Made by a program: the position numbers and the translations under genes
Assembly (NCBI GenBank): GCA_965219575.1
Contig: OZ244779.1
Location: forward strand, 2,092,769 to 2,156,768
Source: Candidatus Oxydemutatoraceae bacterium
Lineage (GTDB): Bacteria; Pseudomonadota; Gammaproteobacteria; Poriferisulfidales; Oxydemutatoraceae
Reading direction: 5' to 3'
Length of the DNA stretch: 64,000 bases
Notes under the pieces: generated by a model
Told to the model about the DNA's origin: nothing
Database searches by the model: none
The model's input: the letters and a program-made list of their open reading frames with translations, nothing else
Part shown: in pieces, positions 9,104 through 29,668 of the stretch
Layout: each line of letters begins with the position of its first letter
Numbering within the stretch: the stretch's first letter is position 1

Positions 9104-9178
9104 GCGGGTGTCGTATAGTGGTTATTACTCCAGCTTCCCAAGCTGGTAAGGAGGGTTCGATTCCCTTCACCCGCTCCA
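9104..9178 (+). tRNA. tRNA-Gly (CCC)
   Basis: Acceptor stem GCGGGTG/CACCCGC, anticodon arm CCAGC-TTCCCAA-GCTGG, T-arm GGTTCGATTCC, encoded CCA. Confidence 0.95.
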
Positions 9179-21955: not shown

Positions 21956-22024
21956 ATCTTTATGATACTTCTCCGGATCTAATTGCCACATCAGACGGTA
22001 TTTATCACTTTATTCGTGTCTCTT

Positions 22025-22753
22025 TTATCCACTACCGTCCAACATCCGCTCCAATTCGGATTTGTGTTTGAGCCAATGACTCCTCAACAACTCATACTTA
22101 TCTATATGCTTGTACAAATCCTCGTCTATCGTTGACTTGGCCTCAGGATATGTAGAGTATGTTTTATACAGAGAACCTTTTTGCTTAGACCTAAACTCTG
22201 AATTAAACGAATATTTCTGTATCTCTTCCGATAAACCCGGGCAAGCTATCTTTGTTTCCAACTTTTTGATATCCTCAATCAGGTGTTCGTATCTAATGCA
22301 AAAATCAACGACTAACTTACCATCTATATGAATAGGTGCATATAGAAAGGAAGCAATCCGTCCCGATTTTTTAAATCTTTTTTCAATCCACTCTCCAAAG
22401 ACCGGCATGTCCTTCTCTTCGGTATTTCGGTGGCAATCATAATATTTAGAAATCATTTTATCGTAGGGACTTCGTATGGTCGCTATCTTCGTATAGCCTT
22501 CCCAAATGTCTGCCGAAATATTATTTTTTATGATGGTTGCACTATTATGTTGCTTATATTTACGGTCTTCACCTTCCCCGATATTTTGCTCTCCATAATA
22601 TCCTAAAGACTCCCTTATTTCATCCTGTCCACGCCCTAGTCTAGTTATTAAATCTTCAGGCCCACAATACTTTGAAAGTGCCATTTCAAACGACATACTT
22701 GCAACTTTTTGAAGCCTTATATATATAACTTTTAGCCTATGTGAAATAATCAT
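22025..22753 (-). CDS. Sulfotransferase family 2 protein
   Basis: MIISH..K.IYI..QKVAS.S (5'-PSB-like loop), IRSPYDKMIS.Y (3'-PB-like), IRYEHL..D; AT-rich. Confidence 0.75.
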   Translation of the reverse strand: MIISHRLKVIYIRLQKVASMSFEMALSKYCGPEDLITRLGRGQDEIRESLGYYGEQNIGEGEDRKYKQHNSATIIKNNISADIWEGYTKIATIRSPYDKMISKYYDCHRNTEEKDMPVFGEWIEKRFKKSGRIASFLYAPIHIDGKLVVDFCIRYEHLIEDIKKLETKIACPGLSEEIQKYSFNSEFRSKQKGSLYKTYSTYPEAKSTIDEDLYKHIDKYELLRSHWLKHKSELERMLDGSG

Positions 22754-22873
22754 TTTATCGACACCTAGATAGCTACGGAACTCACTGTATCAATCGTATA
22801 ATTATATTATAAATTGAATAAGTATTCCGTATACCGTAAGGGAGAGTTAACATTGCGATTTTGTATGAGTTCA

Positions 22874-22921
22874 CGCCGATTGACCTACCCGCTCAATCGG
22901 CTCTTTTATTTTTCAATAGCC
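22874..22921. repeat. Short repeat module D (CTAC-loop hairpin plus TIR)
   Basis: CGCCGATTGACCTACCCGCTCAATCGGC followed by TTTTTCAATAGCC. Confidence 0.8.
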
Positions 22922-22986
22922 TCGGTTCCATATTCGCAATTTATTAGTATAATGATTCCCGAAATATAATACGTGGAGGTATTGAC

Positions 22987-25293
22987 ATGACATTGTATAC
23001 AAAATCTGAAGCACCCGAAGGACATTCATACCATCATATGTGTTGTCCGCACGATTGTCCGGATACTTGTTCTATCTTGGTAACCCGAAACGACAAGACG
23101 GGTAAAGTCGTCAGAGTGCAAGGCGACCCGACTCACCCTATCACCAAAGGCTATCTCTGCAACAAAGTAAATCATTATGTTGAATTAGTCTATAACGACA
23201 ACCGAGTTCTCTATCCACACAAACGAGTAGGGCCCAAAGGTCCGAACGCAAAATTCGAACGCATCGGTTGGGACGAAGCTTTGGATACGATTACCGACAA
23301 CATGAAGGAAGTCATATCCGAATACGGTTCCGAAGCCGTGCAACCGTATTCGTATTCGGGAACACTCGGCATGCTGGGTTACTGGGGCATGGATCAACGT
23401 TTCTGGAACAGAATGAACGCTGCCAGACTGGAGCAATCGATCTGCATCTACGCAGCGATGTGGGCGGGTATTTATACCTACGGCATTGCCAACGGCCCCT
23501 CTATACACGAAGCGTGTTCGGAGGCGGAAGTCATTATATTATGGGGGACCAATTTGGTTAGCACCGGCGTGCATGCGATACCTTTTATACAAAAAGCGCG
23601 CAAGCGCGGTGTCAAACTAATCGTCATAGACCCACGCGTAACGCGTACTACGATGATGGCGGATTGGCATATACAACCGCGCCCCGGCACCGACGGTGCA
23701 TTGGCATTAGGGATGATGAAGATCATCGTCGACGAAGGTCTACACGATTTAGATTTCCTAAAAGAACAAACCGTAGGCTGGGAAGAGTTTTTAGAGAAAA
23801 AGTTACCCGACTATCCACTTGAGAAAGTCGCAGAGATTACCGGGTTGGATGCCGAGACGATTAAAACGCTGGCTCTAGAATACGGCAGTACGAAAAAAAG
23901 CTATATTCGTGCAAATTACGGCTTGAACCGCCACCAAAATGCAGGGCAGATGTGCCGTTCCATCTTGGTGTTGCCTTGTGTCACCGGTGCCTGGCGCGAG
24001 AAATGCGGCGGGGTCGCTTTCGGTACACTGGAAGAAATGTGGTTGAAATTCCCGTTGGGCAAATTACAACGCCCGGACTTAGGAAACCGTGCCGAAAAGC
24101 GTATCGTCAATATGGTGCAGATCGGACGAGCCCTAGCCGACGATATCGGTGCCAACGAGGAGAAACTGGATCCACCGATTAAACATCTATTCGTTTATAA
24201 CTCGGATCCGGCAAACTGCGCACCGAATTCCAATAATGTGCGCAAAGGACTGATGCGCGATGACCTGTTCGTTGCAGTACACGATACTTTCTGGACCGAT
24301 ACTTGTAAATACGCCGATATTGTGATCCCTGCCGATACGCAGTTTGAGCGAGCCGATTTGCATGCAGCCTACGGGCATTATTACTTCAATATGAACAAGC
24401 CTATCATAGAGCCGTTGGGTGAAAGTGTGCGCAACACCGAAATGTTTCGTATGCTCGCAAAGAAAATGGACTATGTCGAGGCAGGCGATAATGCTTTCAC
24501 GCAGACCGACGAGGAAATGATGAGAGAAATCGTAGACGATACCGAAAATCCTCTGATGGAAGGCATCACCTACGAGGAACTCGAAAAAAACGGCTGGGCT
24601 CGAGGTAGCGTAGAATCCGAACGACGCGACTTCCTGAATAAAGGTTGGCCGACCGAAAGCGGAAAAATAGAAATCTATAGCAAGACTTTAGCCGACCAAG
24701 GACAAGACCCTATGCCGACCCACAACCCCGAGGTTGAAGGACAAGAAGATCACGAGCGTCGCAAGGATTATCCGATACAGGTGATCAGTAGCGCAACCCA
24801 TTACTTTATAGGTGATTCGTTCCAGTCGGTGCCGCGCCTACAAGCGATGATGTCGCGTCCCACCGTCGAATTAAATCCCGAAGATGCAAAAGCACGCCAT
24901 ATCAAAGATGGCGATTTAGTACGTCTTTATAATGATCGCGGCGAGACTTTTTGTTATGCGGTAATCGTCGACGGCTTGTTGCCCGGTGTTTGTGGAACCC
25001 AAAAGCAATTTAAGGGAAGCCATACTCCGGGCGGTGTCAACGCAAACGGATTGAACTCCGAGATGTTGACCGACTTCGGCATGAGCCCGTGTTTTTATTC
25101 GGTGCTGGTAGAAATAGAGAAAGCGGAGGCAGCGGATAAACTAACCGCACAAAAATTAAAGCAAATGGGAGGAGAAGCCGGCTATATCAAAGCATGGCGT
25201 TCCGACCCGCGCAACCAAGACGCCAAGATGAGCGACGAAGAGATCATTGCGTATGCAAAATCGCAAAATCCACAAGCATTTACGGAGGTTTAA
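22987..25293 (+). CDS. Cytoplasmic molybdopterin oxidoreductase (DMSO-reductase superfamily, CPHDCPDTC subtype)
   Basis: CPHDCPDTC..C Fe-S motif, GDPTHPITKGYLCNK, PRPGTDGALALG, ADIVIPA, C-terminal Mo-bisPGD domain; no Tat signal; GGAGG RBS. Confidence 0.9.
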   Translation: MTLYTKSEAPEGHSYHHMCCPHDCPDTCSILVTRNDKTGKVVRVQGDPTHPITKGYLCNKVNHYVELVYNDNRVLYPHKRVGPKGPNAKFERIGWDEALDTITDNMKEVISEYGSEAVQPYSYSGTLGMLGYWGMDQRFWNRMNAARLEQSICIYAAMWAGIYTYGIANGPSIHEACSEAEVIILWGTNLVSTGVHAIPFIQKARKRGVKLIVIDPRVTRTTMMADWHIQPRPGTDGALALGMMKIIVDEGLHDLDFLKEQTVGWEEFLEKKLPDYPLEKVAEITGLDAETIKTLALEYGSTKKSYIRANYGLNRHQNAGQMCRSILVLPCVTGAWREKCGGVAFGTLEEMWLKFPLGKLQRPDLGNRAEKRIVNMVQIGRALADDIGANEEKLDPPIKHLFVYNSDPANCAPNSNNVRKGLMRDDLFVAVHDTFWTDTCKYADIVIPADTQFERADLHAAYGHYYFNMNKPIIEPLGESVRNTEMFRMLAKKMDYVEAGDNAFTQTDEEMMREIVDDTENPLMEGITYEELEKNGWARGSVESERRDFLNKGWPTESGKIEIYSKTLADQGQDPMPTHNPEVEGQEDHERRKDYPIQVISSATHYFIGDSFQSVPRLQAMMSRPTVELNPEDAKARHIKDGDLVRLYNDRGETFCYAVIVDGLLPGVCGTQKQFKGSHTPGGVNANGLNSEMLTDFGMSPCFYSVLVEIEKAEAADKLTAQKLKQMGGEAGYIKAWRSDPRNQDAKMSDEEIIAYAKSQNPQAFTEV

Positions 25294-25294
25294 T

Positions 25295-26416
25295 GTGAGC
25301 AATCCAAGCACCAACTTTTACGATCCTGTCCGACAACTGGCTCAAATACCCTACCCCGATAAGACGCTCTACGGTGGTCGGGCAATAACCAACCAATGCA
25401 AGATCAAAAGTATGAAAAAGCTAACTTACGATACTTGCGAATTGGTTATCAAGGCCGAGGAAGGCTCGCAACCGATAGCACGTAGCGCAGGGCAATACGC
25501 GATATTAAAAATAGACGGCATTGAAAAACCCCGCGCCTATTCCTTCGCACGCTCTCCGAAATGTGAAGAGACCGGCGAGTATTCATTCTTCATACGCCAA
25601 GTGCCGGGAGGTCAATTTTCGGGCTGGTTGTTCGATGCCGACCGCAGCGGGCAACCCATTACCGTTCAAGGACCGCTCGGAAAATTCGGTATAGATCCAT
25701 CCGATCTGCAAATGGTTTGTATCGCCGGGGGTAGCGGCATGAGTGCTATCTTCGCACTGCTTGAAGATGGCTGCTTTAGACAAATACAGAGAAATGTATT
25801 ATTCCTATACGGTGCGCGCACCCAGAGAGACCTCTATTGCATTGAAGAAATCAAAACATTAAAAGAGAAGTGGCATTCGGATTATCAATTCGAGTTTGTC
25901 CCGGTATTGTCCGAAGAACCCGAAGACAGCGACTGGCAAGGCGCACGCGGCATGGTGACCGATTATCTAAAGAAAAACTACTTGGATGCCGGAAAAGTGT
26001 CGTTGACCGAAGCCAAAGCCTATTTCTGCGGACCGCCACCGATGATAGACGCGGGCATTGCGGTATTAACCGACCTCGGGATGTCGGAAAACGACATCTA
26101 TTACGATAAATTCGAAGACATCAGATCACCGGCACCGGTAGTTGATAATGCAACCTGCGTGTTATGCGACGAATGTCTTTTTGTCTGTCCTATACCCAAG
26201 TGTATTATCGAGGCATCGAATTTACGCAAAGACGGCGACGGCATCGTCTACGAAGAAGTGGATCCCTATAAGACATCGGGTCTCTATTACAACACCCTGT
26301 ATATAGACCCCAAACAATGTATCCGTTGCTACGCTTGCGTCGATGCATGTCCGGCGGGTGCAATAGATCCTAAAAATCCTGCTATGCCTAAAATGATACG
26401 GCGTATCGACGGCTAG
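25295..26416 (+). CDS. FAD/NAD(P)-binding oxidoreductase with C-terminal 2[4Fe-4S] ferredoxin domain
   Basis: RAYS, GPLG, IAGGSG, YFCGPPPM, then CVLCDECLFVCP and CIRCYACVDACP; GTG start at 25295 after GGAGG. Confidence 0.88.
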   Translation: MSNPSTNFYDPVRQLAQIPYPDKTLYGGRAITNQCKIKSMKKLTYDTCELVIKAEEGSQPIARSAGQYAILKIDGIEKPRAYSFARSPKCEETGEYSFFIRQVPGGQFSGWLFDADRSGQPITVQGPLGKFGIDPSDLQMVCIAGGSGMSAIFALLEDGCFRQIQRNVLFLYGARTQRDLYCIEEIKTLKEKWHSDYQFEFVPVLSEEPEDSDWQGARGMVTDYLKKNYLDAGKVSLTEAKAYFCGPPPMIDAGIAVLTDLGMSENDIYYDKFEDIRSPAPVVDNATCVLCDECLFVCPIPKCIIEASNLRKDGDGIVYEEVDPYKTSGLYYNTLYIDPKQCIRCYACVDACPAGAIDPKNPAMPKMIRRIDG

Positions 26417-26441
26417 AGGCACCAACGCCTTTCCCTCTTTG

Positions 26442-26780
26442 GGAGGGGAATGTACCGACACCGTACCTTGTGCAGATATTTCTGGGGCTATTGAAAAAGT
26501 ATTTCATAGAGTAGTAGGGGCGGACTTATATGTCCGCCCGAACACGTGTCGTGTCAGCATAAATAAAATCGTACGCCATCCAATTTATGGAAACCAAAAC
26601 CAAATGGCGCAAGCGGTTGAGTTTGTACAGAACGGTATTTTTGGGCAGACACACAGGTCTGCCCCTACGACTTTATGGTTATCATACATGTGGCGCATAG
26701 CGGTTAGATTTATGCAGTATCAATACTTTTTCAACAGCCTCGGTGTGTCTGCACAGGTATAGTGCTAGTCCATTCCCTCC
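26442..26780. repeat. Composite repeat mosaic E: three nested inverted-repeat layers
   Basis: Outer 26442-26476/26748-26780; middle TIR 26486-26502/26723-26739; inner inverted REP pair 26514-26539/26643-26668. Confidence 0.9.
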
Positions 26781-26831
26781 TGTAGAGGAACAGTTCAATG
26801 TATAATAACCGAGTAATTTCAAAGTTCGGTC

Positions 26832-27470
26832 ATGTATATTTTTTTGACTATCGCAGCAATCCTTATCTTGCTGCTGCTTATCCGTTGGATTAGGCTACAA
26901 CCTAAGGAAAATCGCTGGCGTTATTATCTGTATTTGCTGATTGCCTTGCTCGTGGGCATGGCATTAACCGGCAGATTACATTGGTTCGTCGTTGCCGGCG
27001 GAGCCGCAATACCCCTCATAATGAAGCTGTTCACCTTTCTACGCTGGACACCCTTCATATTCCGTTTATACCAAAGAATCAAGCCCGGCAGCTCCGGTCC
27101 CGGTTTGTTCGGATCGGCAAACGCTTCCCCCGAGATGGTACAGAATTTGTTGCGTCGCTTAGCCTCTCTGAACGAGCAAGAAATGCGGGTTCTGATAGAA
27201 ATTCTGAAAAAAAGGGATCCGCAAGCAGCGAGTTTTGTGGAAGCATACTTTAAGCGACAACCTCACAACCGACGACAGAGTGCCGCGCCCAAGAATATCA
27301 CAAGCAAAGAAGCCTATAAGATTTTAGGCGTTGAAGCCGGTGCGACACGCGAACAAATCATAGACGCACACCGAAAACTCATGCAAAAATTCCACCCCGA
27401 CCGCGGCGGCACACCTTATATGGCGGCGATGATCAACGATGCAAAACGCGTCCTTTTGGATCAACTATGA
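26832..27470 (+). CDS. Membrane-anchored J-domain (DnaJ-like) protein
   Basis: N-terminal TM helices; C-terminal EAYKILGV...AHRKLMQKFHPDRGG. Confidence 0.9.
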   Translation: MYIFLTIAAILILLLLIRWIRLQPKENRWRYYLYLLIALLVGMALTGRLHWFVVAGGAAIPLIMKLFTFLRWTPFIFRLYQRIKPGSSGPGLFGSANASPEMVQNLLRRLASLNEQEMRVLIEILKKRDPQAASFVEAYFKRQPHNRRQSAAPKNITSKEAYKILGVEAGATREQIIDAHRKLMQKFHPDRGGTPYMAAMINDAKRVLLDQL

Positions 27471-29668
27471 CACCGGTGCTCTATCTCAAACGAGCACTCG
27501 ACGGCATCGTTGCGCTTTATAAGCGAGCAAATGCCTCGAAGACCGTAGAACGAGGACCCTCTTCGACCGATTACGGCGGTATGGGTGAGCGTGAAATACA
27601 ACTGCGTTTAGAATTGTTGATAGACCTGCCGAACAAGGATTTATCCGAACTGTTTCAAACCGCAAAATCATTGACCCGTTTCGGCATGGCAGACCAACTG
27701 AGACTACTGAACGCAGCGCAAGAGCTAAGCCTCGTTTCGACCGAGATTACACACGAGTTTTGCTGCCGAGCCATAGTCGCACTAAAACATCTGGACGATA
27801 AAAACTGGCGCATATGGGTCGACGAAATTAAATCTCTGACATTAAATAAAGGTGTGTCGGATGCAATGGCTTATCTCGCACAAACCGACGATTATGTTGC
27901 GTCGCTCCGGCCCGAACCGGCCACCGTAATACTCGAGCAAGTACGCCCGGTAATAGAGTATTTGATCACCGGCTTCGGCAAAGCACGGCTCAAAATCGCT
28001 CCCGGTACGGAACTCTACACCGATACCGCAACGCTATTCTTACCCGAAAAATATACCGGCTTCGATAGCATCGATAAAAATTTCAGTTTCTATAAATTGG
28101 CAACCACCTATCTATGGGCGCAGAGCTGGTTCGGTACATGGCGTATCGACATTCCGCGACTGCTATACGAACACAACGATCCCGAGCGTGCGATAAACAT
28201 CTTCCAAGCATTGGAAACCTTACGGCTCGCACATTGCCTTGCGCGCACCCTGCCCGGCATCGTGCGATTGGAAAGTATGCTTTACGGCACACGCTGGCAA
28301 CCACCCGATACACCTGCGTGGCGTAATGCCGATACAAAACTTGCCCAAGAATATGCGCGCTCCGAAGACAGCTTAAACCTGATAAACTCGGTGTATACCG
28401 AACCCACACCCGAACTGTATCCGTGCCACGGTGTATACAAACCGGGACGGGTCTATAAGGTGATTAAAACTCGCGTCGACGATAACCAAAGGCGGCTTGC
28501 GGAAATGCTGGACAGACTACGCGAACAACTACAAAAACAAAATAAAATTTCTGCCAAAACTTCGACCCCGTTCACATTGAAGTTCTACGAACAAGCTTTG
28601 ACACCCGACGAATACGGGTTCGTACTAAACCGCGATGGCGAAGATATAGAAATTCCCGAAGACATGCTCGAATTATTCGAACAGCTAGGACAAGATTTAG
28701 GCGCAATACCCGAATCGTTATTGTCGGAATCCGCCTCGGATACCGAAGCTCCCGATCTTAGCGACGAAATCCCCGAGGTGAAAGAACACGAGGCGGCAAA
28801 GCCGATGCTACCCGAATGGGATCATGCAATTCAAAAATATCGCAAAGATTGGTGCCATATCTATATAGAATCGCTCGACGAAGGCGACTCCGACTTTGTA
28901 TCCCGAACACTCGCCGAACACTACAATATCGTCAACCGACTGCACCGCACATTCGAGGCGTTGCGCAACGACGACAAATTACTACGCAAGCAAACACACG
29001 GAGACGAAATAGATCTAGACGCCGTCGTCGAAAGTTGGGTGGATACACTGGCTATAAAAACCGAACTCAACGACAACATTTTCATCAGAACCAATAAAGA
29101 AGAACGCGATGTTGCGGTGATGTTCCTCATAGACATGAGTGCCTCTACACGCGGCTGGATCAACAGACTTGAAAAAGAAGCCTTGGTGCTGTTGTGCGAA
29201 TCTCTGGAAACCTTGGGCGACCGCTATGCAATCTACGGCTTCAACGGACACACCCGAAAGCAATGCAAGATATATCCCGTCAAAACCATCGACGAAGATT
29301 ACGGCAAAACGGTACAGGAAAAAATCGGTGCAATCAAAGCCGAATTGTATACCCGTATCGGCGCAGCGGTTCGTTATGTAGGAGAGCAACTGCAATGTAT
29401 AGAGGCTAAAACCAAAATACTCATCGTGTTATCGGACGGCAAACCCGACGATGCCGACGGCTACCGCGACAGCTACGGCATAGAAGACACCCGCAAAGCA
29501 TTGTTCGAGTTACGCGCCAACGGTATACACTCGCATTGCATTACGATCGACAAAGCGGCTATGGAATACCTACCTTATATGTACGGACACACCCGCTTCT
29601 CTATCATCAACGAAATAGAAAAACTTCCGCTCAGAATGGCAGAAATCTACCGTCAAATTACATGCTGA
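27467..29668 (+). CDS. NorD/CbbO-like von Willebrand A domain protein
   Basis: EWD...YR.DWC, GDEIDLDA, MIDAS-like DMSAST, YTRIGAAVR, LSDGKPDD, YGIEDTR. Confidence 0.88.
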   Translation: MTPVLYLKRALDGIVALYKRANASKTVERGPSSTDYGGMGEREIQLRLELLIDLPNKDLSELFQTAKSLTRFGMADQLRLLNAAQELSLVSTEITHEFCCRAIVALKHLDDKNWRIWVDEIKSLTLNKGVSDAMAYLAQTDDYVASLRPEPATVILEQVRPVIEYLITGFGKARLKIAPGTELYTDTATLFLPEKYTGFDSIDKNFSFYKLATTYLWAQSWFGTWRIDIPRLLYEHNDPERAINIFQALETLRLAHCLARTLPGIVRLESMLYGTRWQPPDTPAWRNADTKLAQEYARSEDSLNLINSVYTEPTPELYPCHGVYKPGRVYKVIKTRVDDNQRRLAEMLDRLREQLQKQNKISAKTSTPFTLKFYEQALTPDEYGFVLNRDGEDIEIPEDMLELFEQLGQDLGAIPESLLSESASDTEAPDLSDEIPEVKEHEAAKPMLPEWDHAIQKYRKDWCHIYIESLDEGDSDFVSRTLAEHYNIVNRLHRTFEALRNDDKLLRKQTHGDEIDLDAVVESWVDTLAIKTELNDNIFIRTNKEERDVAVMFLIDMSASTRGWINRLEKEALVLLCESLETLGDRYAIYGFNGHTRKQCKIYPVKTIDEDYGKTVQEKIGAIKAELYTRIGAAVRYVGEQLQCIEAKTKILIVLSDGKPDDADGYRDSYGIEDTRKALFELRANGIHSHCITIDKAAMEYLPYMYGHTRFSIINEIEKLPLRMAEIYRQITC

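What the first reader, a model, noticed from the sequence alone, without database searches (positions are those of the whole stretch)
22987..26416. Two-component cytoplasmic Mo-enzyme with a reversed-architecture NAD(P)H reductase
Seen: a signal-less Mo-bisPGD protein (CPHDCPDTC; candidate Mo-ligand Cys in QSICIYA; about 55-aa C-terminal tail) is followed 1 bp after its stop by an FNR-type FAD/NAD protein ending in two CxxCxxCxxxCP motifs. No membrane anchor, DmsB-type subunit or TorD chaperone is adjacent. Established: phenol/methane monooxygenase reductases carry an N-terminal [2Fe-2S] domain, and BoxA has N-terminal 2[4Fe-4S]; I do not know a characterised enzyme with this C-terminal dicluster order. 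Inference: a soluble NAD(P)H-FAD-[4Fe-4S]-Mo chain acting on an unknown substrate, such as an S- or N-oxide. This is the best protein-coding candidate for an undescribed system here.
Basis: partly seen in the sequence, partly recalled or inferred. Interest (0 to 1): 0.7.

Follow-up and report, generated by a model that had tools for sequence, protein, structure and literature searches.

The report
Soluble molybdoenzyme with its own NAD(P)H reductase
Two tightly coupled genes encode a cytoplasmic molybdenum enzyme of an uncharacterised, very strongly conserved family and an unusual flavin/iron-sulfur protein that should feed it electrons from NAD(P)H; the pair is kept together in many marine bacteria, but its substrate is still unknown.

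Summary
Gene A (22987-25293, 768 aa) is a signal-less Mo-bisPGD protein with an N-terminal [4Fe-4S] motif and an invariant Cys153 at the metal-ligand position. Gene B (GTG 25295-26416, 373 aa) starts 1 base after A's stop and is FAD/NAD(P)H (FNR-type) plus a C-terminal 2x[4Fe-4S] domain.

The pair is conserved: B follows A in 76 of 80 genome loci, and A precedes B in 73 of 73 evaluable metagenome loci. No NCBIfam model reaches its cut-off. The nearest solved structures share 14-23% identity. Nine literature searches found no characterised member.

New here:
- B's FNR core belongs to the AlkB-reductase lineage, with the [2Fe-2S] domain replaced.
- Sister-clade enzymes on three plasmids have an unfused ferredoxin and FAD reductase.
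- Some lineages place an AmiS/UreI small-solute channel and a porin-like gene in the operon.
- All 40 carrier genomes tested hold an AlkB-like hydroxylase, and 39 of 40 a divergent methanethiol-oxidase-like protein.
- The genome has no assimilatory nitrite reductase.

Best reading: a soluble NAD(P)H-driven reductase of a small neutral S- or N-oxide, with DMSO or dimethylsulfone as first guess. The substrate is unproven. This scan has reported the same pair four times on other DNA.

The parts
22754..22986 (+). Upstream intergenic region of gene A, shared with the divergent sulfotransferase-like gene. It holds a short interspersed repeat (about 22850-22910).
   Evidence: ORF map. blastn finds up to 92 copies of the repeat in the genome. 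No Rfam family is present, so no Moco riboswitch. The promoter-like element conserved upstream of A in other genomes is absent here.
22987..25293 (+). Gene A: cytoplasmic Mo/W-bisPGD (DMSO-reductase superfamily) catalytic subunit, 768 aa
   Evidence: Pfam domains. AlphaFold2 model with mean pLDDT 95.4. Foldseek finds only superfamily-level matches. Orthologues are 63-99% identical.
23044..23160 (+). FS0 [4Fe-4S] motif C20-x3-C24-x3-C28 ... C58, followed by K60
   Evidence: C20, C24, C28 and C58 are invariant and K60 is at least 90% conserved in 106 sequences. Pfam Molybdop_Fe4S4.
23443..23445 (+). Cys153, the predicted Mo ligand
   Evidence: Invariant in 106 sequences, down to 28% identity. 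In profile alignments it pairs with SeCys140 of E. coli FdhH, with the Cys of two FdhF-type enzymes and with Cys141 of acetylene hydratase.
25132..25290 (+). C-terminal helical tail of A (residues about 716-768)
   Evidence: Modelled as four helices at pLDDT 82-95. Absent from sister-clade proteins of about 690 aa. Shorter in the low-GC lineage, where the match ends at residue 726 and B is still adjacent.
25284..25288 (+). GGAGG ribosome-binding site of gene B, inside the end of gene A
   Evidence: Direct reading.
25295..26416 (+). Gene B: FNR-type FAD/NAD(P)H reductase with a C-terminal 2x[4Fe-4S] domain, 373 aa; GTG start 1 base after A's stop
   Evidence: The FNR part is modelled at pLDDT above 85 and the ferredoxin part below 60.
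25397..26053 (+). FAD-binding (35-131) and NAD(P)H-binding (143-253) domains. Invariant residues: R80, S83 (Y82 at 90% or more), G145-G148, S150 and C245-M250.
   Evidence: Pfam. Invariant columns in 54 homologues.
26156..26350 (+). Dicluster ferredoxin domain: C288, C291, C294, (C298), C303 ... C342, C345, C348, C352
   Evidence: Eight Cys are invariant in 54 homologues; C298 is not conserved. Fer4 family models.
26417..26831 (.). Intergenic block of REP-like palindromic repeats downstream of B. Not part of the system; it marks the end of the operon.
   Evidence: Up to about 220 genomic copies. DNA-run contigs break here and depth jumps roughly 100-fold. The 107-aa ORF 26439-26762 has no counterpart in the three closest genomes.

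Best explanation
A and B form a soluble, cytoplasmic two-component molybdoenzyme.

Proposed mechanism:
- B takes a hydride from NAD(P)H onto FAD.
- B passes single electrons through its two C-terminal [4Fe-4S] clusters.
- The electrons reach the N-terminal [4Fe-4S] cluster of A (C20, C24, C28, C58), and go from there through K60 and the pterin to a Cys153-ligated Mo (or W) bis-PGD centre.
- That centre removes an oxygen atom from a small, uncharged, polar oxo-compound.

My first guess for the substrate is a methylated sulfur oxide: DMSO and/or dimethylsulfone, giving DMS. The DMS would then enter an AlkB-like hydroxylase / methanethiol-oxidase-like route that every carrier genome examined also holds. 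A small N-oxide or N-hydroxy compound is the second guess.

Shown here: the domain content, the invariant ligands, the strict gene pairing, and the lack of any characterised relative.
Inferred: that A and B bind, the direction of electron flow, and the substrate.

My odds: B is A's dedicated redox partner, about 0.75. Flow is reductive, about 0.7. The substrate is a neutral S- or N-oxide, about 0.5. It is DMSO or DMSO2 specifically, about 0.2.
For: Pairing:
- B lies 3-92 bases after A in 76 of 80 loci found with A. Two misses run off their contigs; two are real (L037, L065).
- A lies directly before B in 73 of 73 loci found independently with B that have at least 300 bases upstream. Seven loci were too short to judge.
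- All other neighbours change with lineage.
- A stays 63-83% identical while locus GC runs from 0.31 to 0.74 and B drops to 49-60%.

Electron chain:
- The FS0 cysteines, K60 and C153 are conserved. C153 aligns with the metal-ligand SeCys/Cys of FdhH, FdhF and acetylene hydratase.
- B keeps the FNR motifs and eight cluster cysteines.
- Sister-clade enzymes (36-41% identity) on Agrobacterium, Methylophaga and Thioclava plasmids are followed by a 100-aa 2x[4Fe-4S] ferredoxin, a 450-aa FAD pyridine-nucleotide oxidoreductase and MoaA or Glp. This is the same chain in unfused form.
- Complex prediction of A with B residues 272-373 gave weak support only: score 0.35, best of 3 controls 0.00, partner pLDDT at least 71, runs agreeing in at least 70% of contacts. 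In the tool's calibration the mark was reached by 58 of 80 solved complexes and 2 of 110 mismatched pairs. At 0.60 or under it was reached by only 7 of those 80, and by both mismatches that passed.

Origin of B:
- Its FNR core is 49% identical to a [2Fe-2S]-FNR paralogue in this genome.
- All 6 longer relatives found are Fer2-FNR-AlkB fusions.

Substrate class:
- In L051, L177 and L195 the operon is AmiS/UreI channel, then a Gcw_chp protein with a signal peptide and a C-terminal Phe, then A, then B.
- In soil contig L151 the order is a PF03601 membrane protein, an AurF-like oxygenase, A, B, AmiS/UreI, then an AlkB-like gene.
- Channels of that family carry urea and small amides (established knowledge), so a small neutral solute fits.

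Genome co-occurrence:
- AlkB-like orthologues occur in 40 of 40 carrier genomes, against 10 of 301 in a class-wide sample, which include all 4 genomes with full-length B.
- A divergent SBP56 (methanethiol-oxidase family) protein occurs in 39 of 40 carriers, against 20 of 300 in the sample.
- In G187 and G012 the AlkB-like, GST-like, [2Fe-2S]-FNR and SBP56-like genes lie together; in G187 a SCO1/SenC gene lies on each side of the cluster. mtoX is known to sit with SCO1/SenC (PMC5739008, passages read).

Open niche:
- A 2026 preprint calls the DMSO2 reductase gene unknown (10.64898/2026.02.18.706717, figure legend read).
- A 2026 ISME J introduction lists only DmsABC and DMSOR as DMSO reductases (PMC13352529, passages read).
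Against: - No substrate is shown, and no experiment exists.
- Known S- and N-oxide reductases (DorA, DmsA, TorA, BisC) use a Ser ligand, not Cys (recalled).
- The co-occurrence with the AlkB-like and SBP56-like genes is confounded by kinship. The carriers are related lineages, the genes are scattered in this genome, and the AlkB-like gene is never directly beside A in 160 loci. Its nearest positions are about 1 kb after B in L151 and 1.5-4.5 kb upstream elsewhere, with DinB in between.
- AmiS/UreI is near the pair in only 4 of 160 loci.
- In 29 low-GC loci the neighbour after B is an ammonium transporter, and in 18 the neighbour before A is an MFS_2 transporter. This points to nitrogen rather than sulfur.
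- Only 1 of 26 sister-clade loci from a phylum sample has the ferredoxin and FAD reductase nearby.
- The complex score is in the band the tool calls more often wrong than right without a prior.
- Expression evidence is thin: two RNA-library contigs on the 5' part of A, which may be carried-over DNA.
Confidence: 0.55

Rival explanations
1. The pair reduces an inorganic oxyanion or inorganic sulfur compound in the cytoplasm (thiosulfate, tetrathionate or polysulfide; nitrate, chlorate, selenate or arsenate), using NAD(P)H.
For: - Cys-ligated members of the superfamily typically act on such substrates (Nap/Nas, Psr/Phs, Arr, Ttr; recalled).
- A YeeE-type sulfur-compound transporter lies 111-604 bases upstream of A, on the same strand, in 11 of the 12 loci of the sponge-symbiont clade that hold one; in the twelfth (L013) it ends 2085 bases upstream.
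- The hosts are sulfur oxidisers, with DsrAB-like genes and a SoeA-like gene.
- With the family profile, Thermus polysulfide reductase scores almost as well as the best hits: 376 bits against 404.
Against: - Model scores are far below cut-offs: PhsA 174 bits against 694, NasC 222 against 1100, NapA 110 against 904.
- The genome has no assimilatory nitrite or sulfite reductase. Its only 2 NIR_SIR matches are an adjacent DsrAB-like pair. Nitrate assimilation through A would therefore end at nitrite.
- The transporters found inside the operon elsewhere are an AmiS/UreI channel for neutral solutes, not anion carriers.
- The YeeE homologue of this genome lies about 1.4 Mb away, so that link looks like inherited gene order.
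Confidence: 0.15
2. The chain runs the other way. A oxidises a low-potential substrate (for example sulfite, an aldehyde, or formamide or another small amide) and B delivers the electrons to NAD(P)+, giving reducing power to an autotroph.
For: - FNR-type modules are reversible, and NAD+-reducing Mo enzymes exist (FdsABG-type formate dehydrogenases; one is encoded in this genome).
- With the family profile, formate dehydrogenases are the best solved matches (404 and 398 bits).
- The AmiS/UreI channel and ammonium-transporter neighbours would suit an amide that releases ammonia.
Against: - The residue after the ligand Cys is Ile154, not the His of the Cys/SeCys-His pair of formate dehydrogenases.
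- B's closest relatives are NAD(P)H-oxidising reductases of AlkB-, BenC- and MmoC-type oxygenases.
- The unfused sister systems use ferredoxin-reductase-type flavoproteins, which are normally donors.
Confidence: 0.12
3. B is a shared reductase for di-iron oxygenases (AlkB-like, AurF-like) and supplies A only incidentally, or not at all. The adjacency would reflect co-regulation within one pathway.
For: - B's FNR core comes from the AlkB-reductase lineage.
- In L151, A-B sits between an AurF-like and an AlkB-like gene.
- All 40 carriers tested hold AlkB-like genes.
Against: - AlkB-like genes have their own [2Fe-2S]-FNR, next to them in G150, G254, G187, G145, G012, G271 and G099.
- B is always directly after A: 73 of 73 evaluable loci, with gaps or overlaps from -14 to 280 bases. 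It is never next to an oxygenase without A.
- Dicluster ferredoxin domains are the usual partners of the FS0 cluster in this superfamily (recalled).
Confidence: 0.1
4. A is a non-redox enzyme like acetylene hydratase, and B only keeps its metal reduced.
For: Acetylene hydratase is the best single-sequence match among solved structures (E 3.8e-58) and the best by TM-score (0.78/0.82). It needs a strong reductant for activity (recalled).
Against: The position of the catalytic Asp13 of acetylene hydratase is Pro25 in A. Identity is only 23%. A stoichiometric, translationally coupled reductase is a costly way to activate an enzyme.
Confidence: 0.03

Closest known systems
Acetylene hydratase of Pelobacter acetylenicus (PDB 2e7z)
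   Same: Cytoplasmic, single Mo/W-bisPGD subunit of about 730 aa with an N-terminal [4Fe-4S] cluster and a Cys ligand at the aligned position. Best TM-score of all solved chains.
   Different: 23% identity. The catalytic Asp13 position is Pro in A. Acetylene hydratase has no reductase partner and catalyses no net redox reaction.
Assimilatory nitrate reductases with an NAD(P)H flavoprotein partner (Bacillus NasC/NasB type)
   Same: Same logic: a soluble Cys-ligated Mo-bisPGD enzyme fed from NAD(P)H through a flavoprotein and iron-sulfur clusters.
   Different: The NasC model scores 222 bits against a cut-off of 1100. The partner there is a NirB-like pyridine-nucleotide-disulfide flavoprotein, not FNR plus a dicluster. 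This genome lacks an assimilatory nitrite reductase.
Unnamed sister clade ('RSc2859 family') on Agrobacterium, Methylophaga and Thioclava plasmids
   Same: 36-41% identical Mo subunit with the same invariant Cys set. It is followed by a 2x[4Fe-4S] ferredoxin and an FAD reductase, often with MoaA or Glp.
   Different: The donor is unfused, with a non-homologous flavoprotein. An AraC regulator is present. It is also uncharacterised. Only 1 of 26 chromosomal sister loci keeps the donor genes nearby.
BenC / XylA / MmoC-type reductases and Fer2-FNR-AlkB fusion proteins
   Same: B's FAD/NAD core is 36-49% identical to these.
   Different: They carry an N-terminal plant-type [2Fe-2S] domain. B has none, and has a C-terminal 2x[4Fe-4S] domain instead.
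BoxA (benzoyl-CoA epoxidase reductase)
   Same: Combines 2x[4Fe-4S] with an FNR module.
   Different: The domain order is the opposite (clusters N-terminal). The BoxA model scores 25 bits against a cut-off of 459, and only on one cluster motif.
DMSO reductases DorA and DmsABC
   Same: Same superfamily. The DmsA/YnfE model is A's best NCBIfam match (300 bits). The proposed chemistry is the same.
   Different: The cut-off is 778 bits. Those enzymes are Tat-exported and Ser-ligated and take electrons from quinol or cytochromes (recalled). A is cytoplasmic, Cys-ligated and NAD(P)H-linked.

Membership tests
Mo/W-bisPGD (DMSO reductase, MopB) superfamily | Molybdopterin and Molydop_binding domains, with the four-domain fold | tested here: met
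   Pfam scores of 139.9 and 58 bits are over their cut-offs. The model has pLDDT 95.4 and TM 0.70-0.78 to many members.
Mo/W-bisPGD (DMSO reductase, MopB) superfamily | N-terminal FS0 [4Fe-4S] motif and a protein ligand to the metal | tested here: met
   C20, C24, C28, C58 and C153 are invariant in 106 sequences. C153 aligns with the known ligand residues. Metal and cofactor content were not tested.
DmsA/YnfE subfamily (TIGR02166) | Score over the curated cut-off, a Tat signal, and DmsB/DmsC partners | tested here: not met
   300 bits against 777.7. No twin-arginine motif. No DmsB- or DmsC-type neighbour.
Formate dehydrogenase alpha (TIGR01591) | Cys/SeCys-His pair at the active site, and a score over the cut-off | tested here: not met
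   252 bits against 666. Ile154 follows Cys153, where FdhH and FdhF have His.
Acetylene hydratase | Catalytic Asp next to the second FS0 cysteine | tested here: not met
   Pro25 aligns with Asp13. That Asp13 is the catalytic residue is recalled, not tested.
Assimilatory nitrate reductase (NasC/NasA/NarB) | Score over the cut-off, and a nitrite reductase in the genome to complete the pathway | tested here: not met
   222 bits against 1100, and 118 against 1000. Only two NIR_SIR matches, an adjacent DsrAB-like pair.
FNR-like reductases of the BenC / MmoC / XylA type | FAD and NAD(P)H domains with RxYS and GGxG motifs | tested here: met
   Pfam. R80, S83 and G145-G148 are invariant; Y82 is at least 90% conserved.
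FNR-like reductases of the BenC / MmoC / XylA type | N-terminal plant-type [2Fe-2S] ferredoxin domain | tested here: not met
   No Fer2 match in B. Residues 1-34 have no domain. The paralogue in this genome has Fer2 at residues 16-90.
BoxA | N-terminal 2x[4Fe-4S] followed by FNR, with a score over the cut-off | tested here: not met
   25.4 bits against 459.2. The clusters are C-terminal.

The most novel reading that the evidence does not exclude
A-B is the missing soluble NAD(P)H-dependent dimethylsulfone/DMSO reductase of aerobic methylated-sulfur degraders. It makes DMS inside oxic marine and sponge-associated bacteria. It is the entry step of an undescribed route in which an AlkB-type membrane hydroxylase (with its own GST-like protein and [2Fe-2S]-FNR) demethylates DMS, and a divergent copper SBP56 enzyme oxidises the resulting methanethiol to sulfide for the sulfur-oxidising machinery.
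Probability: 0.15. Interest if true: 0.85.

Novelty: new variant of a known kind. Interest (0 to 1): 0.6.

Why it matters
Mo-bisPGD enzymes drive much of microbial sulfur, nitrogen, arsenic and selenium redox chemistry, and new branches have repeatedly revealed new chemistry.

This branch stands out for several reasons:
- It is held at 63-83% identity across genomes whose local GC runs from 0.31 to 0.74.
- It is kept in carrier assemblies of only about 1.1 Mb whose completeness was not reported.
- It occurs in sponge symbionts and in open-ocean assemblies (Tara records).
- It comes with a purpose-built NAD(P)H donor.

It is therefore likely to carry out an important reaction on a common small molecule. 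If the substrate is DMSO or dimethylsulfone, the pair would name a gene for a step whose gene a 2026 preprint still calls unknown. It would also add a cytoplasmic, oxygen-compatible source of DMS to marine sulfur budgets.

The pair is small, soluble and self-contained, so the question can be tested directly by co-expression and an NAD(P)H assay.

Tried and rejected
- Riboswitch or other RNA upstream of A: none. Only a tRNA at 9104-9175 passed in the whole window.
- Promoter and terminator scans of 22000-27600 were at chance level.
- Shared regulatory motif: a promoter-like element (TTGTAG/TTGTCC, spacer, CTTGTAGTA[A/T]) lies 74-141 bases upstream of A in 46 of 118 distinct upstream regions. 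It is absent from this window and from the regions upstream of the AlkB-like, GST-like/reductase and other genes checked. It is not enriched in this genome. So there is no evidence for a shared regulon.
- A-B fusion proteins: none among proteins of 654-2000 aa. The tool says that finding none there is weak evidence.
- A direct AlkB-like/A/B operon, as two earlier notes of this scan describe: not seen in any of my 160 loci. I could not fetch the DNA behind those notes.
- The c5 protein (251 aa) beside the AlkB-like gene has no family, and is not AurF-like (E 41).
- Neighbours of sister-clade stand-alone loci (periplasmic binding proteins, an aminopeptidase, others) gave no lead.
- The ferredoxin of the Agrobacterium sister system matches B's ferredoxin domain only over one cluster motif (45% over 40 residues).
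- RNA runs X23 and X24 laid nothing on the stretch. The tool warns that this does not show absence.
- Literature searches that found no characterised member. The library lacks most subscription journals, and supplements were closed.
- Coordinates of the predicted models are not available to scripts, so the substrate funnel could not be inspected.

Full report
**What is there**

The ORF map shows a 768-aa frame at 22987-25293 and a frame that continues to 26416.

Gene A carries three domains: the Fe4S4 domain of molybdopterin oxidoreductases (residues 20-70), the molybdopterin domain (73-493) and the dinucleotide-binding domain (599-705). Its N-terminus has no twin-arginine motif.

Gene B most likely starts at GTG 25295. 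That is one base after A's TAA, with GGAGG at 25284-25288. Homologues of 371-381 aa align from there. B has an FNR-type FAD domain (35-131), an NAD(P)H domain (143-253) and a dicluster ferredoxin region (287-358).

One detail changes. In 54 homologues the fourth Cys of the first motif (C298) is not conserved, whereas C303 is invariant.

**Is it a known enzyme?**

- No NCBIfam model reaches its cut-off. The best for A is DmsA/YnfE at 300 bits against 778. The best for B is AntC at 141 bits against 402.
- Among solved structures, the best single-sequence match for A is acetylene hydratase (E 3.8e-58).
- With a family profile, formate dehydrogenases, acetylene hydratase, polysulfide reductase and MtsZ all score alike, at 370-404 bits.
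- The AlphaFold2 model is confident (pLDDT 95.4). It matches only at superfamily level: 14-23% identity, with the best TM-score for acetylene hydratase.
- In a library of 1.84 billion representatives, the family is followed by a sharp drop. The best hit is 62% identical at 988 bits; the next full-length relatives are 42% identical at 552 bits.
- Those relatives, from Paenibacillus, Ktedonobacteraceae, Tunturiibacter and Agrobacterium, carry only generic names. The ESM Atlas gives 'RSc2859 family'.
- Nine literature searches found no characterised member.
- This scan has reported the same pair on four other stretches of DNA. I treated those notes as leads only.

**Active-site reading**

In 106 sequences spanning the family and its sisters, C20, C24, C28, C58, R73, C153, D236, P448 and E454 are invariant, and K60 nearly so.

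In profile alignments C153 pairs with SeCys140 of FdhH, with the Cys of two FdhF-type enzymes and with Cys141 of acetylene hydratase. So A is a Cys-ligated enzyme.

Two known functions can be set aside:
- Ile154 replaces the His of formate dehydrogenases.
- Pro25 sits where acetylene hydratase has its catalytic Asp13.

**The pair**

Starting from A, 76 of 80 species-representative genome loci have B 3-92 bases downstream. Two misses are contig ends. Two are real: L037, and L065, a second copy in one MAG.

Starting independently from B in metagenomes, 73 of 73 loci with enough upstream sequence have A directly before B. Seven loci were too short to judge.

Nothing else is conserved around the pair. 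The neighbours are DinB and TraB/GumN in one group, YeeE in the sponge-symbiont group, and an MFS_2 transporter and an ammonium transporter in a low-GC group.

A stays 63-83% identical while GC ranges from 0.31 to 0.74. B falls to 49-60%.

A complex prediction of A with B's ferredoxin domain gave weak support only: 0.35 against a best control of 0.00. No A-B fusion was found.

**Where B comes from**

- This genome holds a paralogue with the classical order [2Fe-2S]-FAD-NAD. It is 49% identical to B over the FNR core and lies next to a GST-like gene and msrB.
- In relatives that paralogue sits in an operon: AlkB-like hydroxylase, GST-like protein, reductase.
- All 6 longer proteins related to B are Fer2-FNR-AlkB fusions.

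So B is an AlkB-type reductase core that lost the [2Fe-2S] domain and gained a C-terminal dicluster domain. That is the kind of domain that normally talks to FS0 in this superfamily (recalled).

**An unfused analogue**

On plasmids of Agrobacterium, Methylophaga and Thioclava, a sister enzyme (36-41% identity) is followed by a small 2x[4Fe-4S] ferredoxin, an FAD pyridine-nucleotide oxidoreductase, and MoaA or Glp. An AraC regulator lies beside it in the Agrobacterium and Thioclava loci, but not in the Methylophaga locus. This supports the NAD(P)H-flavin-dicluster-Mo wiring.

The support is limited. In a phylum-wide sample only 1 of 26 sister loci keeps those genes nearby, and the neighbours of the others are uninformative.

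**Clues to the substrate**

1. This genome has only three Mo-bisPGD proteins: an FdsA-type formate dehydrogenase, a 982-aa protein I read as SoeA-like (no model reaches its cut-off; best match PhsA, 203 bits against 694), and A. It has no assimilatory nitrite reductase. That argues against nitrate assimilation.

2. In three marine loci the operon is AmiS/UreI channel, then a Gcw_chp protein, then A, then B. The Gcw_chp protein has a signal peptide and a C-terminal Phe, as outer-membrane barrels do. In a soil contig with GC 0.59 the order is a LysR gene on the opposite strand, then a PF03601 membrane protein, an AurF-like oxygenase, A, B, AmiS/UreI, an AlkB-like gene, a hydrolase and a cupin. 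AmiS/UreI channels pass urea and small amides, so a small neutral solute fits better than an anion.

3. All 40 carrier genomes tested hold an orthologue of the AlkB-like hydroxylase, and 39 of 40 hold a divergent SBP56 protein. In a class-wide sample the figures are 10 of 301 and 20 of 300. All four genomes with full-length B hold both. Nine of the ten AlkB-like carriers have the SBP56-like gene. The tallies include two unpublished genomes, G141 and G296, on which nothing depends.

4. In G187 and G012 the AlkB-like, GST-like, reductase and SBP56-like genes are clustered. In G187 a SCO1/SenC gene lies on each side of the cluster. This is the arrangement described for methanethiol oxidase (PMC5739008, passages read).

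Together these suggest a methylated-sulfur route, with A-B as a reductive entry step from DMSO or dimethylsulfone. A 2026 preprint states that the DMSO2 reductase gene is unknown.

**Caveats**

- The carriers are kin, so the co-occurrence counts overstate independence.
- In this genome the modules are scattered.
- The AlkB-like gene is never directly beside A in 160 loci.
- AmiS is present in only 4 of 160 loci.
- The ammonium-transporter neighbour in 29 low-GC loci, and the AurF-like gene, point towards a nitrogen compound.
- Known S-oxide reductases are Ser-ligated (recalled).
- Evidence of expression is limited to two identical RNA-library contigs on the 5' part of A.

**Verdict**

This is an uncharacterised, strongly conserved, self-contained NAD(P)H-linked molybdoenzyme with a donor architecture not seen in solved or named proteins. 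The wiring is well supported by comparative evidence. The direction of electron flow is probable. The substrate is open: a small neutral S- or N-oxide is the best class, and DMSO or DMSO2 is the first candidate to test.

Noticed in passing
window 26417-26831 and 22850-22910: Short palindromic REP-like repeats flank the A-B operon, with up to about 220 and about 92 copies in the genome. DNA-run contigs break there and depth rises roughly 100-fold. The 107-aa ORF 26439-26762 is made of these repeats and is not a conserved gene.
   Followed up: partly
own genome G000:C1:2197862-2198593 (L090 5845-7659, outside the window); L091, L092, L093: A classical [2Fe-2S]-FNR paralogue of B sits with a GST-like 220-aa gene. 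In relatives it forms an operon: AlkB-like hydroxylase, GST-like protein, reductase. In G187 this is followed by a 90-aa ORF, a 500-aa ORF, a divergent SBP56 (methanethiol-oxidase family) gene and SCO1/SenC. This looks like an undescribed oxygenase/thiol-oxidase module.
   Followed up: partly
L023-L080 and L142-L201, 74-141 bases upstream of gene A: A conserved promoter-like element (TTGTAG or TTGTCC, spacer, CTTGTAGTA[A/T]) is present in 46 of 118 distinct upstream regions of A. It is absent from this window.
   Followed up: partly
L087, L088, L089 (plasmids of Agrobacterium, Methylophaga, Thioclava): A sister-clade module travels on plasmids: Mo enzyme, ferredoxin, FAD reductase, MoaA or Glp. 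An AraC regulator is present in two of the three loci, and transposase genes lie nearby in two (IS6 on both sides in Thioclava). It looks like a mobile, self-sufficient molybdoenzyme cassette of unknown function.
   Followed up: partly
L066-L070, L078, L125-L193 (low-GC lineage): In this lineage A-B is bracketed by an MFS_2 transporter (18 loci) and an ammonium transporter (29 loci). A's C-terminal tail is shortened there.
   Followed up: partly
window 26832-29668: A DnaJ-domain protein (212 aa) overlaps by 4 bases a 733-aa protein with a C-terminal VWA domain. The pair is shared only with the three closest genomes. Function not examined.
   Followed up: no
window 22025-22753 (-): A sulfotransferase-family (PF03567) gene lies divergent from gene A. 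It has a counterpart in only two of the three closest genomes.
   Followed up: no
own genome G000:C1:408967-410797: The only NIR_SIR-family genes are an adjacent pair of about 405 and 428 aa, which looks like DsrAB. No assimilatory sulfite or nitrite reductase was detected.
   Followed up: partly
carrier genomes G705, G707, G712, G715-G718 and others: Many carriers hold two AlkB-like copies with identical scores: one about 3 kb upstream of A-B, and one elsewhere, shown in G718 (= G150) to lie beside its GST-like and reductase genes. This suggests recent duplication or gene conversion.
   Followed up: no
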